Made by a program: the position numbers and the translations under genes. Below, in pieces: positions 6,242 through 31,115 of a stretch of 64,000 bases of DNA (the first letter of the stretch is position 1; the number at the start of each line of letters is the position of its first letter). The notes under the pieces are model-generated. The model ran no database searches, was not told the origin of the DNA, and saw only the letters and a program-made list of their open reading frames with translations. The DNA is taken from assembly GCF_053078305.1 (NCBI RefSeq), contig NZ_CP166875.1; one strand, given 5' to 3'. Source of the stretch: a plasmid.

Positions 6242-6618
6242 GTTTACCTGCCGGGTATTACCGGATTGAACCGGACATCCGTGCACTGGTGGCCGCGATG
6301 AACGTTCACGGATTCCGTACATATGCCTCCTGTCAGGGACATGGTTTCCCGGTCACAAAGCTGCTGCCTTATATTGCCTTTGCCTGTCCGGTAAAAATGA
6401 CTGCCCTTCTTGAGCAGCGACTGCGGCAGGATGCTGAATCAGCAATACCACGTCTGACATGGGGATGGTCGGTGAAGGGGGCTTTTAACAGTGACCTTCA
6501 GCTCTGTTTCCGGCTTCAGCCGGAAGGTCCTCATTGCTGGTATCACCGGTACTGTCGTCGTTCACTGCGTGCAGACTTCAGGACGCTGATATTGTTACTG
6601 AAGTCGTTATCTGAGTAG
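6238..6618 (+). CDS. hypothetical Cys/His-containing protein, not part of the F tra set
   Basis: 126 aa; ATGA overlap with trbC stop; no family recognised. Confidence 0.4.
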   Translation: MSLPAGYYRIEPDIRALVAAMNVHGFRTYASCQGHGFPVTKLLPYIAFACPVKMTALLEQRLRQDAESAIPRLTWGWSVKGAFNSDLQLCFRLQPEGPHCWYHRYCRRSLRADFRTLILLLKSLSE

Positions 6619-26917: not shown

Positions 26918-27289
26918 ATGATGAAAAAAATATTACTGGTGGCAGCCATTACGGGAATGTTCGTTCAGGGGGTATGGGCAAAATCAGATCAGCAAATCCG
27001 GGATGAGGCTAAAAATAATGTGATCACTGTTTCTCAGGTGAGTGACATGACGGAGGGGACCGGTGTGACGCTGAATGGTCAGATAGTGAAGCAACTGGCA
27101 GCCGAAGAGGATCATTTTGAACTCAGTGATGCATCAGGAAGTATTGTCATTGATGTCGATGATGAAGTATGGCGCCCGCTGGCCCTGAAAGCCGGAGATA
27201 AAGTTCAGGTTGTGGGAGAAGTGGATATTTCTGATGAGGGAAACCGGAAAGCCACGGTGGATGTACTGACTCTTGAGCGTCTTCGCTGA
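26918..27289 (+). CDS. YgiW/BOF-family periplasmic OB-fold protein
   Basis: 123 aa with signal peptide; family assignment from memory. Confidence 0.5.
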   Translation: MMKKILLVAAITGMFVQGVWAKSDQQIRDEAKNNVITVSQVSDMTEGTGVTLNGQIVKQLAAEEDHFELSDASGSIVIDVDDEVWRPLALKAGDKVQVVGEVDISDEGNRKATVDVLTLERLR

Positions 27290-27324: not shown

Positions 27325-27882
27325 ATGACAGAGCAGAAACGGCCAGTACTGACACTGAAACGAAGAACCGACGTGGAAACACCGACCCGGAGCCGGAAAA
27401 CCATCATCAATGTCACCACGCCACCAAAATGGAAGGTGAAAAAGCAGAAACTGGCGGAGAAGGCTGCCCGGGAAGCAGAGCTGGCGGCGAAGAAAGCACA
27501 GGCCAGACAGGCGCTGTCCATTTATCTGACGCTGCCCTCGCTGGATGAGGCGGTGAACACTCTGAAACCCTGGTGGCCGGGATTGTTTGACGGTAACACG
27601 CCCAGGCTTCTTGCCTGCGGTATCCGGGAGGTTTTACTGGATGAGGTGTCTCAGCGAAATATCCCGCTCTCTCATAAAAAACTCAGCCGGGCGCTGAAAG
27701 CCATCACCCGTTCGGAAAGTTATCTGTGCGCAATGAAAGCCGGCGCCTGCCGCTATGATACGGAAGGCTATGTGACAGAACATATCACACAGGAAGAAGA
27801 ACAGTATGCGCAGGCGCGCCTGGAAAAGGTGCGCAGACAGAACCGGATCAAGGATGAGCTGCGGGCGATCCTGGCTGAATAA
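27325..27882 (+). CDS. finO: FinO fertility inhibition RNA chaperone
   Basis: 185 aa, Lys/Arg-rich N-terminus; position after traX. Confidence 0.88.
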
Positions 27883-28983
27883 TAAAAACGCCCTCTGTAT
27901 GACAGAGGGCAACAGCGAAAAAATCGGGAAAACAGACATCCAGAGTTTTGATGGAGAAAAACACCCAACCGTTCAGGGATGTTTCATAATGTTTCTGACA
28001 TAATCCGGGCGCCGGGTCAAGGGGGGGATAAAAAATGGCTGTATCCAGTGGATTATCTGAGCACAGCGGTATTTATCGCTATCAGCGCGTGGGGCGTCAT
28101 GCCGTCCGTCAGGAGATTCGTGGCTTTTTCAGGGAAGCCGCTGAGGCCTGGCAGAATGCGGCCCGGCTGGCACCCTGTGAAGCATGGCGGGATTTTGCCC
28201 TGAAGAGGGCATCTGCATGCCGGTGTAAGTGCCGATAAAAATAACCCCCGTCGCGGAGCTCCGGGGGATCAGGCTTATATGGCAGATCGTTATTATTATT
28301 ATTATAGTGGTGTAAGAAGGAGTTGCCCTGTCTTTCAAACGGACATCACAGAATTAACATATTTCACCTCCCGGGTAAGCCAGCAGGGATAAAAAATGTG
28401 ATGAATTTCAAGAAGCAGGAGGTGACAGTGGCATGCATAACAGCAGGGTTATCCGGTGAATCTGACAGACAGCCGGGCTGTATTCGCGGCAGGATAAAGA
28501 AAAACCGGGAGATGACTCTCCCGGTCCGTCTTATCGCTAATCCCCTGAGCAGGGCATGTATGACTTATCTATGACCATTATATTCAGCGCCACATCCGGT
28601 AGCCTGCGATATAACACAGTTATCCTGTCAGTAAGAGCAGGTATGATGAATACACGGAGATTAAAAATATAATCTCCGTCACATGTTACCCCCGGAAACC
28701 GGTAACGCCGTCACGGGAAAGACGTGACAGAAAAAGCAGCCTCCGTTACTCCAGGTATCAGAAGGCTGAATAATGCATGAGACTTTCTTTCTTATGTGTC
28801 TGGTCAGGCTGGCTGACCAGCGTTTTTAGTAACACATAGCCATATGTGTATTAAGCCACCTCATCTTATTTTGTTGAATTGATCACAATTCAACGGTTTA
28901 TTTTTGGCGTGATGTGTGAGCCGTTATTCATCCCGGCATGGAATTCATGCAATAACGAAAAGTAATCAGTGACGGAGAGTAAA

Positions 28984-29445
28984 ATGAAGAAATATATACC
29001 ACTGGTATTATTTGTTTTTTCATGTCAGGTATTTTCTGCTGATATTCATGGACGGGTTGTGCGTGTTCTGGATGGCGATACCATTGACGTTATGTTATCT
29101 CAGCATCCGGTGCGTGTCCGTCTTGTTAATATTGATGCACCTGAAAAGAAACAGGACTATGGCCGGTGGTCTGAAAAAATAATGAAATCTCTGGTTGCGG
29201 GAAAAACGGTTACTGTCACATATTTTCAGCGAGATCGTTATGGTCGTATTCTCGGGCAGGTTTATGCACCAGACGGAATGAATGTTAATCAGTTTATGGT
29301 CCGTGCAGGCGCTGCATGGGTTTATGAGCAGTACAACACCGATCCTGTTCTTCCCGTCCTGCAGGGAGAAGCACGACAGCAGAAACGTGGTCTGTGGGCA
29401 GACAGCGCTCCTGTTCCGCCCTGGGTATGGCGCTCACGGAAATAA
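28984..29445 (+). CDS. secreted thermonuclease (staphylococcal nuclease-like)
   Basis: Signal peptide plus SNase-like motifs; ATG at 28984 preceded by ggagag. Confidence 0.75.
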   Translation: MKKYIPLVLFVFSCQVFSADIHGRVVRVLDGDTIDVMLSQHPVRVRLVNIDAPEKKQDYGRWSEKIMKSLVAGKTVTVTYFQRDRYGRILGQVYAPDGMNVNQFMVRAGAAWVYEQYNTDPVLPVLQGEARQQKRGLWADSAPVPPWVWRSRK

Positions 29446-29532: not shown

Positions 29533-29931
29533 ATGAAAGGTGAACAAATGAACTATCAGGCAGTATCAGAATTAATCACATCGTCTAATCATAATGTTCT
29601 TATTGTGGGGGACTCAGCTTCTGAAGTTGATAGCTTTTTAAATAAACTGAATATTACTGATTATAAGTATTATGATTTCAGCCAGATTTACAGTTGTTCT
29701 GACAGAACATTAAATGATTATGCGGTTATTTTTATCAGGGATGCACTGAACGCCAGTGAGCATATTATTATTTTTAATTGTACAGGATGGCCTGATTTGA
29801 ATAATGAATCTGCCGTCATGCAGTTTGCCAGAGTGGCACGAAAATCAGGAAAACAACTGATAGTCGCAGTAAGAGAACAGGATATGAAAAAAATGGAAGC
29901 AGAGTTTGGAAGGATCATAAAAATCCACTGA
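29533..29931 (+). CDS. hypothetical protein
   Basis: 132-aa ORF; stop abuts conserved hairpin element copy 2. Confidence 0.4.
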   Translation: MKGEQMNYQAVSELITSSNHNVLIVGDSASEVDSFLNKLNITDYKYYDFSQIYSCSDRTLNDYAVIFIRDALNASEHIIIFNCTGWPDLNNESAVMQFARVARKSGKQLIVAVREQDMKKMEAEFGRIIKIH

Positions 29932-30005: not shown

Positions 30006-30210
30006 AGTGAAAAGCGGGAAATGGAGGGAATGGTCAGTAACAGGGAATGTGGTATTATCGCGGCGGGTGTCTGAGCCTTTCTGGTTCAGGCAAGACGCAG
30101 GTACTAGAAATGCGAAGACCCCACTTGTTAATCCATTAACTCGTGAGGCCTGCATGAAGTACTTGAACACTACTGATTGTAGCCTCTTCCTTGCAGAGAG
30201 GTCAAAGTTT

Positions 30211-30360
30211 ATGACGAAATATGCCCTTATCGGGTTGCTCGCCGTGTGCGCCACGGTGTTGTGTTTTTCACTGATATTCAGGGAACGGTTATGTGAGCTG
30301 AATATTCACAGGGGAAATACAGTGGTGCAGGTAACTCTGGCCTACGAAGCACGGAAGTAA
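30211..30360 (+). CDS. Hok/Gef-family type I toxin (SrnB/PndA-like)
   Basis: 49-aa peptide with N-terminal TM helix; in-frame upstream leader ORF (from 30154) as in srnB/pnd loci. Confidence 0.8.
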   Translation: MTKYALIGLLAVCATVLCFSLIFRERLCELNIHRGNTVVQVTLAYEARK

Positions 30361-30904: not shown

Positions 30905-31024
30905 AGACTTTACTTTGTGGCGTAGCATGCTAGATTACTGATCGTTTAAGGAATTTTGTGGCTGGCCACGCCATAAGGTGGCAGGGAACTGGTTCTGATG
31001 TGGATGTACAGGAGCCAGAAAAGT

Positions 31025-31115
31025 GAAAACCCCGATAATCTTCTTTAACTTTGGCGAGTGAGAAAGATTACCGGGGCCATCTAAAAACCGTATAGCCAAC
31101 AATTCAGCTATGCGG
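31025..31115 (-). ncRNA. copA: CopA antisense RNA (approximate bounds)
   Basis: CopT target motifs recognisable on + strand; exact ends not determinable by eye. Confidence 0.4.

What the first reader, a model, noticed from the sequence alone, without database searches (positions are those of the whole stretch)
28560..28960. Palindrome-rich non-coding stretch upstream of the secreted nuclease gene
Several perfect or near-perfect palindromes occur: GGAGATTA..TAATCTCC near 28657..28679, CTGGTCAG..CTGACCAG near 28800..28820 and TTGAATTG..CAATTCAA near 28876..28895. They sit in about 1.1 kb of non-coding DNA between finO and the nuclease gene and may be operators or remnants of lost genes.
Basis: seen in the sequence. 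Interest (0 to 1): 0.3.

Follow-up and report, generated by a model that had tools for sequence, protein, structure and literature searches.

The report
Hairpins of an IncF antisense-RNA spacer
The palindromes are real and far more frequent than chance, but they look like ordinary RNA-hairpin and terminator elements in a rearranged IncF plasmid spacer that keeps the front half of a known antisense RNA (AS-pc02) upstream of the nuclease gene.

Summary
All three palindromes exist within 1-3 bases of the stated positions. Three perfect inverted repeats occur where 0.06 are expected, and no shuffle out of 1000 reached that count.

The 1.1 kb is not all non-coding. It holds yigA (28035-28238), a small ANR-family ORF. 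It is also a mosaic:
- yigA' plus a lineage-specific segment X (28239-28600)
- a roughly 100-nt patch (28601-28699)
- 28700-28983, which is 72-75% identical to the ANR-to-nuclease spacer of R100 and F

Rfam AS-pc02 (RF02876, antisense to the ANR gene) hits the minus strand at 61.6 bits against a threshold of 40. Only its 5' half (28807->28715) is truly retained.

- **28800-28820:** this palindrome sits at the start of that RNA. R100-type plasmids keep it with a compensatory C-G to T-A change. Here it also carries a T-run, so it looks like a plus-strand terminator.
- **28873-28894:** this one lies where R100 and F have a perfect CRP-consensus palindrome. Here the CRP match is only 8/10, which is chance level, and the repeat is imperfect in 4 of 6 sibling plasmids.
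- **28654-28679:** this one lies in the lineage-specific patch and has no clear role.

Expression is inferred, not shown. The finding is ordinary and of low interest.

The parts
27890..27910 (-). Hairpin just right of the finO stop, followed by a T-run on the minus strand (GTTTTTATTA). It is an intrinsic-terminator-like stop for leftward transcription before finO.
   Evidence: -16.5 kcal/mol, z -5.1. R100 has equivalent minus-strand terminators right of finO.
28035..28238 (+). yigA', a divergent ANR-family small ORF of 67 aa.
   Evidence: NCBIfam ANR_neg_reg gives 29 bits against a 32-bit cut-off. The DNA profile of R100-type ANR loci aligns to 27987-28210 at E 3e-18.
28243..28260 (-). GC-rich hairpin plus T-run on the minus strand, immediately after the yigA' stop. 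Terminator-like.
   Evidence: The same element is found in ES5-type locus L015. The sequence is also present in L016.
28239..28600 (.). Segment X, lineage-specific spacer DNA that travels with yigA'. It is absent from R100 and F.
   Evidence: About 250 plasmids carry it, against about 4000 with the short R100-type spacer. It is 79% identical in L015, where it abuts the nuclease gene. The yigA' 3' end plus the first 174 nt of X also lie between hok and aphA in L016. It occurs at most twice per genome, so it is not a repeated mobile element.
28502..28527 (-). Strong intrinsic-terminator-like hairpin, GGACCGGGAGAGTCATCTCCCGG followed by TTTTTCTTT on the minus strand. Proposed 3' end of the leftward RNA.
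   Evidence: -22.3 kcal/mol, z -5.7.
28601..28699 (.). Patch found only in window-type plasmids. It may be a fossil of a nuclease-gene upstream region and start.
   Evidence: No homologue was found outside window-type plasmids. CTGCGATAT (28604-28612) equals the R100-type nuclease-upstream motif. ACGGAGATTAAAA resembles the nuclease RBS region ACGGAGAGTAAAA at 28972-28984. Alignment P is 0.02-0.04.
28654..28679 (.). Palindrome 1 (I3): 10-bp perfect arms, 6-nt AT loop, no T-run on either strand.
   Evidence: -13.1 and -14.6 kcal/mol. It is invariant in 6 of 6 sibling plasmids, which differ too little (identities about 95-99%) for this to be informative.
28715..28807 (-). Conserved 5' half of the AS-pc02 antisense RNA (Rfam RF02876). 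It includes helices at 28757-28771 and 28724-28749.
   Evidence: The Rfam hit is 28665-28807 (-), 61.6 bits against 40, and only model positions 1-97 align with high confidence. It is 72-75% identical to R100-type. The 10-bp helix is canonical in 127/130 cells as minus-strand RNA against 91/130 as plus-strand RNA, with an A-U to G-C exchange.
28700..28727 (+). Remnant of the 3' end of an R100-type ANR gene. TGA at 28725-28727 lines up with the ANR TAA stop.
   Evidence: Homology is robust from 28715 and weak from 28700 to 28714.
28800..28820 (.). Palindrome 2 (I12): 8-bp arms, 5-nt loop, TTTTT at 28823-28827. On the plus strand it looks like a terminator. On the minus strand it is a stem-loop at the very start of the AS-pc02-like RNA.
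   Evidence: R100, F and others keep C[C/T]GGTC-N9-GACC[G/A]G, with pair types CG x8, UA x4 and UG x1. The Rfam 5' end is 28807. R100 has no plus-strand terminator-like site here.
28826..28854 (-). Candidate leftward promoter, inferred only: TTAATA (28854->28849), 17 nt, TGtTACTAA (28834->28826). The predicted start is about 28819, at the foot of palindrome 2.
   Evidence: Read from the sequence. The TGTG[C/T]TACT motif is conserved against R100-type. It was not picked up by the consensus scan.
28873..28894 (.). Palindrome 3 (I7): 9-bp arms (11 with G-U pairs, 28871-28896), followed by TTTATTTTT at 28897-28905. On the plus strand it looks like a terminator. It overlaps the degenerate CRP-like core TGTTG-N6-TCACA at 28872-28887.
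   Evidence: -10.1 kcal/mol. R100-type and F have a perfect TGTGA-N6-TCACA palindrome here. The window's 8/10 match is chance level. The left arm is GTCGAATTG, giving one mismatch, in 4 of 6 siblings.
28984..29445 (+). Thermonuclease-family gene (yigB) with an N-terminal signal-peptide-like sequence. RBS GGAGAG at 28974-28979.

Best explanation
The stretch is the right-hand part of a mosaic IncF spacer. It carries a leftward (minus-strand) antisense-RNA unit related to AS-pc02, and the palindromes are mostly its hairpins and transcription stops.

Proposed mechanism (inferred):
1. Leftward transcription starts near 28819-28856.
2. The RNA begins with the stem-loop made by palindrome 2.
3. It continues through the conserved AS-pc02 5' module (28807->28715) and palindrome 1.
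4. It stops at the strong terminator at 28527->28502. Back-up terminators lie at 28260->28243 and 27911->27889.
5. Rightward transcripts from yigA'/X meet palindrome 2 plus T5 and then palindrome 3 plus its T-run, two tandem terminator-like hairpins. These would insulate the nuclease gene and create an overlap with the leftward RNA.

In R100-type plasmids the same RNA runs into the ANR coding sequence. Here a rearrangement replaced that half, so the RNA overlaps only the long 3' region of yigA'.

Shown here: the palindromes, their excess over chance, the homology map, the Rfam hit, and covariation that favours the minus-strand RNA. Inferred: the promoter, the RNA ends, termination, and any regulatory effect.
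For: - The Rfam RF02876 hit is above its gathering score in the window (61.6 against 40) and in sibling L021 (53.5). R100 gives the full-length hit at 229.5 bits in the same position and strand.
- The context is collinear (ANR/yigA, spacer, nuclease) in R100, F and 8 other loci.
- The helices fit the minus-strand RNA far better than the plus strand: 127/130 against 91/130, and 51/52 against 42/52.
- Two pairs change on both sides, one in palindrome 2 and one in the 10-bp helix. Cells paired are 88.6% against 28-50% when partners are slid.
- Terminator-like sites number 7 against 1.0 +/- 1.0 expected in 27800-29100. They are arranged as three leftward stops to the left and two rightward stops to the right.
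- The 328-nt leftward RNA folds at -117.6 kcal/mol with z = -4.9.
- R100 has minus-strand terminators right of finO and a minus-strand promoter-like site in the ANR-nuclease spacer.
Against: - No expression data exist for this plasmid type.
- The family rests on one RNA-seq study of pHK01 (Jiang et al. 2017, pmid 28854680), which is not held in the library and which I could not read.
- Only the 5' half of the model is truly matched. The 3' half aligns with large deletions and low posterior probability.
- No consensus-grade promoter was found on either strand near 28800-28900.
- The Rfam 5' end (28807) lies inside palindrome 2. The hairpin is therefore part of the RNA only if the true start is about 12 nt or more upstream.
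- Covariation comes from few independent events: the window lineage, plus L010 for one pair.
- Palindrome 2 itself fits both strands about equally (90/117 against 98/117).
- Palindrome 3 is imperfect in 4 of 6 siblings.
- Palindrome 1 has no T-run and no diverged homologue to test.
Confidence: 0.55

Rival explanations
1. The palindromes are protein-binding operators. In particular, palindrome 3 would be a CRP/FNR-type site controlling the nuclease promoter, the divergent antisense promoter, or both. Palindrome 2 would be a dimer-binding site over the antisense start.
For: - R100-type plasmids and F have a perfect CRP core TGTGA-N6-TCACA at the aligned position, in 8 of 8 R100-type loci with that region and in F.
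- It is centred about 60 bp from the inferred leftward start, which is a classical class I distance by my own arithmetic.
- The window keeps the TCACA half-site in register.
- Each arm of palindrome 3 contains a -35-like TTGAAT.
- The half-site spacing of palindrome 2 (N9) is conserved.
Against: - The window's CRP match is 8/10. Such matches occur 37 times in the window against 32.6 expected.
- The window palindrome is centred 4 bp away from the R100 one and has a different sequence.
- Its left arm is mismatched in most siblings.
- Symmetric double changes in palindrome 2 are what hairpins predict, not what a fixed protein would tolerate.
- No DNA-binding regulator is encoded next to the stretch. 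ANR proteins are not known to bind DNA (my own knowledge).
Confidence: 0.2
2. The palindromes are inert by-products of recombination. The stretch would be junk left from joining a yigA'-X-nuclease module to an R100-type ANR-nuclease module, with perfect repeats made by template-switch repair of quasi-palindromes and no present function.
For: - The structure is a mosaic with breakpoints at about 28600 and about 28700-28715.
- There is an ANR 3' remnant and a possible nuclease 5' fossil around palindrome 1.
- The AS-pc02 3' half has been lost.
- ES5-type plasmids lack the whole 28601-28925 stretch and still have the nuclease gene.
- Palindrome 3 is imperfect in most siblings.
Against: - Palindrome 2 and the AS-pc02 helices are preserved across 72-75% sequence divergence with compensatory changes and a strand-specific G-U pattern.
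- Terminator-like sites are 7-fold over expectation and are oriented coherently.
- The stretch is kept at 95-99% identity in about 250 plasmids.
Confidence: 0.2
3. The stretch hides small protein genes. Candidates are the hydrophobic 20-aa minus-strand ORF across palindrome 1 (28682->28620, MTEIIFLISVYSSYLLLLTG), which resembles a type I toxin, and the 38-aa plus-strand ORF at 28556-28672.
For: - ORFs of 20-38 aa exist.
- The 20-aa one is hydrophobic and lies in a strongly folded RNA.
- The 38-aa ORF has a 12-aa stretch 50% identical to the ANR N-terminus, at E 0.6-0.8.
Against: - ORFs this short are expected by chance in all six frames.
- None is annotated in 250 records.
- There is no convincing ribosome-binding site, and the similarities are not significant.
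- The conserved part (28715-28902) has no ORF conserved between window-type and R100-type: MHETFFLMCLVRLADQRF against MHEICFF (read).
Confidence: 0.03

Closest known systems
AS-pc02 antisense RNA (Rfam RF02876, 'Antisense to pHK01_099'; Jiang et al. 2017, FEMS Microbiol Ecol 93:fix090, cited in PMC11980398 ref. 46)
   Same: - Same strand and same place, between the ANR/yigA gene and the thermonuclease gene of IncF plasmids.
- The 5' 93-97 nt are homologous and keep their helices.
- The score is above the family threshold.
   Different: - The 3' half, which in R100 and pHK01-type plasmids is antisense to the last ~104 nt of the ANR coding sequence, is replaced by unrelated sequence.
- The score is 61.6 bits against 229.5 in R100.
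- The RNA would overlap only non-coding DNA here. A canonical terminator lies about 300 nt downstream rather than an end inside ANR.
Rho-independent (intrinsic) terminators
   Same: - Palindrome 2 has an 8-bp stem with 5 G-C pairs followed by TTTTT.
- Palindrome 3 has a stem followed by TTTATTTTT.
- The minus-strand hairpins at 28527->28502, 28260->28243 and 27911->27889 all fit the stem-plus-T-run pattern.
   Different: - Palindrome 3 has an AU-rich stem (-10 kcal/mol) and is mismatched in most siblings.
- Palindrome 1 has no T-run on either strand.
- The R100-type equivalents of palindromes 2 and 3 lack T-runs.
CRP (cAMP receptor protein) binding site, consensus TGTGA-N6-TCACA
   Same: The aligned position in R100-type plasmids and in F carries a perfect core inside a 10-bp-arm palindrome. 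The window keeps TCACA in register.
   Different: The window's left half-site is TGTTG (TGTCG in siblings). Its own palindrome is shifted 4 bp and unrelated in sequence. The match is at chance level.
Other IncF cis-antisense RNAs (FinP/traJ, CopA/repA, Sok/hok)
   Same: These are short, highly structured leftward RNAs overlapping a rightward mRNA. CopA and sok are present in the same window.
   Different: There is no sequence relation. Those RNAs target 5' leaders and translation starts. This one overlaps a 3' region, and its target and effect are unknown.

Membership tests
Rfam RF02876 AS-pc02 | Covariance-model score at or above the curated gathering score (40 bits) | tested here: met
   61.6 bits, E 2e-14, window 28665-28807 minus strand. 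Sibling L021 scores 53.5 bits.
Rfam RF02876 AS-pc02 | Full-length match, including the 3' half (model positions ~98-185) that is antisense to the ANR coding sequence | tested here: not met
   The model is spanned only through 38-nt and 3-nt deletions with low posterior probability. An nhmmer profile of ANR loci shows homology resuming only at 28700-28715. R100 scores 229.5 bits.
Rfam RF02876 AS-pc02 | Location on the strand opposite to, and between, the ANR/yigA gene and the thermonuclease gene of an IncF plasmid | tested here: met
   Same order and strand in the window, R100, F and other loci.
Rfam RF02876 AS-pc02 | Conserved secondary structure in the RNA strand | tested here: met
   This holds for the 5' half only. 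The 10-bp helix is canonical in 127/130 cells as minus-strand RNA against 91/130 as plus-strand RNA, with one A-U to G-C exchange.
Rfam RF02876 AS-pc02 | A transcript is actually made | not testable with these tools
   No expression data are available. The primary paper is not held.
Intrinsic terminator | G+C-containing stem-loop directly followed by a U-run on the transcribed strand | tested here: met
   Met for palindrome 2 (plus strand), for palindrome 3 (plus strand, weak stem), and for 28527->28502, 28260->28243 and 27911->27889 (minus strand). In all there are 7 sites against 1.0 expected. Not met for palindrome 1.
Intrinsic terminator | Termination of transcription in vivo or in vitro | not testable with these tools
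   This needs Term-seq, 3' RACE or reporter assays.
CRP binding site | Match to TGTGA-N6-TCACA better than chance | tested here: not met
   The window has TGTTG-N6-TCACA at 28872-28887, with 2 mismatches. There are 37 such matches in the window against 32.6 expected. The core is perfect in R100-type loci and in F.
Degraded gene (pseudogene remnant) | Significant collinear similarity to an intact gene elsewhere | tested here: inconclusive
   The ANR 3' end remnant at 28715-28727 sits inside a 5e-23 nhmmer hit. No ANR-like coding remnant is found in 28239-28700 (best E 0.6). The nuclease 5' fossil in 28601-28690 is supported only at P 0.02-0.04.

The most novel reading that the evidence does not exclude
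In this plasmid lineage the AS-pc02 5' module may have been fused to new sequence (palindrome 1 and a strong terminator). The product would be a distinct, highly structured leftward RNA of about 320 nt that no longer overlaps any coding sequence. Its 93-nt conserved module is still about 75% complementary to the region just downstream of the ANR gene on R100-type plasmids. It could therefore act in trans on co-resident IncF plasmids, as plasmid-plasmid RNA cross-talk, or on host targets.
Probability: 0.08. Interest if true: 0.5.

Novelty: new variant of a known kind. Interest (0 to 1): 0.2.

Why it matters
The stakes are modest.
- The analysis explains an unannotated, hairpin-dense kilobase found in about 250 sequenced IncF plasmids, many from Shiga-toxin-producing and bovine E. 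coli.
- It shows that a catalogued plasmid antisense RNA (AS-pc02) has at least three structural states: full in R100, shortened in F, and with its 3' half replaced here. It is absent from ES5-type plasmids.
- It suggests that in this lineage the ANR-family gene has been uncoupled from its antisense RNA, and that the nuclease gene is insulated by terminators.
- If confirmed, it would refine annotation of IncF backbones. It would not change any general concept.

Tried and rejected
- **Second, degraded ANR gene under 28556-28730:** tblastn gave only a 12-aa, E 0.6-0.8 match, and nhmmer found nothing between 28210 and 28700. Rejected, apart from the last ~13-28 nt.
- **Extra ~480 bp as a mobile element:** there are no terminal repeats and at most 2 copies per genome, nearly all on plasmids. 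Rejected.
- **Coding potential of segment X (57-aa ORF 28401-28574):** the L015 homologue keeps the N-terminus and RIKKNREM, but the middle diverges as fast as the DNA and the C-terminus is frameshifted. Judged non-coding.
- **Smith-Waterman of 28560-28720 against nuclease 5' regions and the ANR locus:** nothing exceeded the shuffles except the shared X segment. A more permissive scoring gave only borderline hits.
- **Consensus promoter scans:** no convincing sigma-70 promoter for the nuclease gene or the antisense RNA.
- **Scan of representative genomes for the conserved core:** only 4 mis-binned plasmid contigs, all R100-type, adding no diversity.
- **Other Rfam families in 26.5-32.5 kb:** only sok, CopA, and sub-threshold repZ/repBA pseudoknots.
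- **Literature:** the pHK01 sRNA paper is not held. Papers mentioning AS-pc02, yigA or yigB give no mechanism.

Full report
**Setting**

The window is an IncF plasmid backbone. Its genes run in this order:
- traX
- a YgiW-like OB-fold gene (26918-27289)
- finO (27325-27882)
- a small ORF, yigA (28035-28238)
- a thermonuclease-family gene with a signal-peptide-like N-terminus (28984-29445)
- a hypothetical gene (29533-29931)
- hok/sok
- copB
- CopA RNA
- repA

The finding covers 28560-28960, the right-hand third of the 1101-bp finO-nuclease interval.

**Observation**

The three palindromes exist:
- 28654-28663 / 28670-28679: 10-bp arms
- 28800-28807 / 28813-28820: 8-bp arms
- 28873-28881 / 28886-28894: 9-bp arms

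In 28560-28960 there are three perfect inverted repeats with arms of at least 8 and loops of 3-10. Dinucleotide shuffles give 0.06, and none of 1000 reaches three. The window-wide density is 0.18 per 400 bp. Two more lie further left, at 27890-27910 and 28504-28525.

The interval is not all non-coding. yigA is annotated in sibling plasmids and is a divergent ANR-family protein, at 29 bits against a cut-off of 32. The R100 orthologue scores 40 bits.

In R100 (L008), pPO189_F (L003) and about 4000 other plasmids the order is finO, then ANR (213 nt), then a 243-bp spacer, then the nuclease gene. Only about 250 plasmids carry the long version seen here, at 95-99% identity.

A DNA profile of R100-type ANR loci hits the window in two collinear pieces:
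- profile positions 14-236 match 27987-28210, which is yigA'
- profile positions 250-367 match 28700-28820

About 490 bp therefore lie between parts that are adjacent in R100.

Window 28715-28902 is 72-75% identical to the R100-type spacer. The TGA at 28725-28727 lines up with the ANR stop codon.

The extra DNA has two parts:
- **Segment X (28239-28600).** It is shared at 79% with a rare third arrangement (plasmid of strain ES5, L015), where X abuts the last ~55 nt upstream of the nuclease gene. Together with the yigA' 3' end, its first part also occurs between hok and aphA in L016.
- **A ~100-nt patch (28601-28699).** It is found only in window-type plasmids. It begins with CTGCGATAT, a motif of the R100-type nuclease upstream region. 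The left arm and loop of palindrome 1 (ACGGAGATTAAAA) resemble the nuclease ribosome-binding region (ACGGAGAGTAAAA). Alignment significance is only P 0.02-0.04.

The simplest history is a join between a yigA'-X-nuclease module and an R100-type ANR-nuclease module, with loss of everything between a nuclease 5' end and an ANR 3' end. This is inference.

F (L025) has the R100-type spacer, with an internally deleted ANR and a truncated nuclease gene.

**The antisense RNA**

Rfam RF02876 (AS-pc02, 'Antisense to pHK01_099') hits 28665-28807 on the minus strand at 61.6 bits, against a gathering score of 40.

In R100 and L003 the full 185-nt model scores 229.5 bits. It covers the last 104 nt of the ANR coding sequence plus 80 nt downstream, so pHK01_099 is the ANR gene.

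Scores in the other arrangements:

| Plasmid type | AS-pc02 score |
|---|---|
| R100 | 229.5 bits |
| F | 87.3 bits |
| Window-type sibling L021 | 53.5 bits |
| ES5-type | no hit |

In the window only model positions 1-97 (28807->28715) align with confidence. The rest is bridged by deletions. The window therefore keeps the 5' half of the RNA gene but not the half that was antisense to the coding sequence.

I aligned 15 sequences in the RNA orientation (A5) and counted pairs:
- The 10-bp helix (window 28749->28724) is canonical in 127/130 cells as minus-strand RNA, but only 91/130 as plus-strand RNA. It shows an A-U to G-C exchange and G-U intermediates.
- The Rfam long-range helix is canonical in 51/52 cells against 42/52.
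- Overall 88.6% of cells pair, against 28-50% when partners are slid.

The selected molecule is therefore the leftward RNA. The number of independent changes is small.

**Palindrome 2 (28800-28820)**

It is conserved in all R100-type loci and F as C[C/T]GGTC-N9-GACC[G/A]G. The second pair is C-G in 8 distinct sequences, U-A in 4 (the window lineage and L010) and U-G in 1.

The Rfam 5' end (28807) falls in its right arm.

A conserved TGTG[C/T]TACT motif just upstream on the minus strand gives a possible extended -10 (TGtTACTAA, 28834->28826), with TTAATA 17 nt further up. That would start the RNA at about 28819, at the foot of the hairpin. This is inference: the consensus scan found no promoter here.

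In the window, but not in R100, the hairpin is followed by TTTTT on the plus strand. It therefore also scores as a rightward terminator (-13.9 kcal/mol).

**Palindrome 3 (28873-28894)**

R100-type loci and F have TATTTTGTGA-TTAATT-TCACAAAATA at the aligned place. This is a perfect CRP core, TGTGA-N6-TCACA.

The window keeps TCACA in register, but its left half-site is TGTTG. A match of that quality is at chance level, with 37 found against 32.6 expected.

The window's own palindrome is centred 4 bp to the right and has a different sequence. It is followed by TTTATTTTT and scores as a second rightward terminator (-10.1 kcal/mol).

Four of six siblings have C instead of T at 28875, which breaks one pair. 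Selection for a perfect hairpin is therefore doubtful.

**Palindrome 1 (28654-28679)**

It lies in the lineage-specific patch. It has no T-run on either strand and is invariant in siblings that are too close to be informative. It folds well on both strands. I can say only that it would be an internal stem-loop of the leftward RNA, and that it may have arisen in a gene-start fossil.

**Transcription layout**

Terminator-like sites in 27800-29100 number 7, against 1.0 +/- 1.0 expected. They are arranged coherently:
- leftward stops at 28527->28502 (-22.3 kcal/mol), 28260->28243 and 27911->27889
- rightward stops at palindromes 2 and 3

A leftward RNA from 28822 to 28495 folds at -117.6 kcal/mol, z = -4.9.

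R100 has equivalent leftward terminators right of finO, plus a leftward promoter-like site (TTGTGA-16-TAAAAT) overlapping the CRP palindrome.

The model is convergent transcription: yigA'/X rightward and AS-pc02-like leftward, with hairpins serving as ends.

**Verdict**

There are gene remnants. An operator role is not supported for the best-conserved palindrome and is open only for the third.

The stretch is best described as a rearranged AS-pc02 antisense-RNA locus with flanking intrinsic terminators. That makes it a new structural variant of a known kind, of low general interest. All statements about promoters, RNA ends and regulation are inferences that need transcript mapping.

Noticed in passing
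L008 (R100) 6573-6588; L003 2660-2675; L025 (F) about 1850-1875: A perfect CRP-consensus core (TGTGA-N6-TCACA) inside a 10-bp-arm palindrome lies about 85 bp upstream of the thermonuclease start. It is present in all 8 R100-type loci examined and in F. It suggests cAMP-CRP control of the IncF nuclease gene, the AS-pc02 promoter, or both. I found no report of this.
   Followed up: partly
window 28035-28238: yigA' is a divergent ANR-family (AraC negative regulator) protein that falls just below the NCBIfam cut-off (29 against 32 bits). That is why RefSeq calls it 'hypothetical protein' in this plasmid lineage.
   Followed up: yes
L015 (NZ_CP133870) 2291-2890: A third arrangement, in the plasmid of strain ES5: yigA' plus segment X joined directly to the last ~55 nt upstream of the nuclease gene. 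It has no AS-pc02 hit.
   Followed up: yes
L016 (NZ_CP069530) 2406-2699 and L005: The 3' part of yigA' plus the first 174 nt of segment X (78.5% identical) also sit between hok and aphA. RefSeq annotates a 97-aa 'hypothetical protein' across them, probably a spurious ORF over a truncated yigA'.
   Followed up: partly
window 28401-28574 (+): A 57-aa ORF (MNFKKQEV...RIKKNREM...) in segment X, annotated only in AP026744. Its L015 counterpart shares the N-terminus and RIKKNREM but diverges in the middle and is frameshifted at the end. It is probably not a gene.
   Followed up: partly
L021, L022, L023, aligned to window 28829-28839: An 11-bp tandem duplication (AGTAACACATA) lies immediately after the T-run of palindrome 2 in three sibling plasmids. 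It falls in the region proposed as the antisense -10/-35 spacer.
   Followed up: no
L022 (CP046678), aligned to window 28692-28759: A ~70-nt stretch over the ANR remnant and the first AS-pc02 helix is heavily diverged in this one sibling, while the flanks are near-identical. This could be a recombination patch or a sequencing problem.
   Followed up: no
L025 (F plasmid) 1561-1749 and about 1945-2034: In F the ANR gene has an internal ~66-nt deletion that changes its C-terminus, and the nuclease gene is cut off after about 90 nt. AS-pc02 scores only 87 bits there.
   Followed up: partly
window 28289-28306: A short (TTA)5-like microsatellite (GTTATTATTATTATTATAG) in segment X. Its length differs in L015 and L016.
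   Followed up: no
window 28710-28728: A fourth small palindrome, GTCACG-N7-CGTGAC, created by a 4-nt insertion relative to R100-type. It overlaps the 3' arm of the conserved 10-bp AS-pc02 helix, so the two structures are alternatives in this lineage.
   Followed up: partly
window 30065-30221 and 31021-31111: The sok antitoxin RNA with a hok/srnB-type toxin ORF (30150-30360), and the CopA copy-number RNA. Both are standard IncFII features and both are above Rfam thresholds.
   Followed up: no
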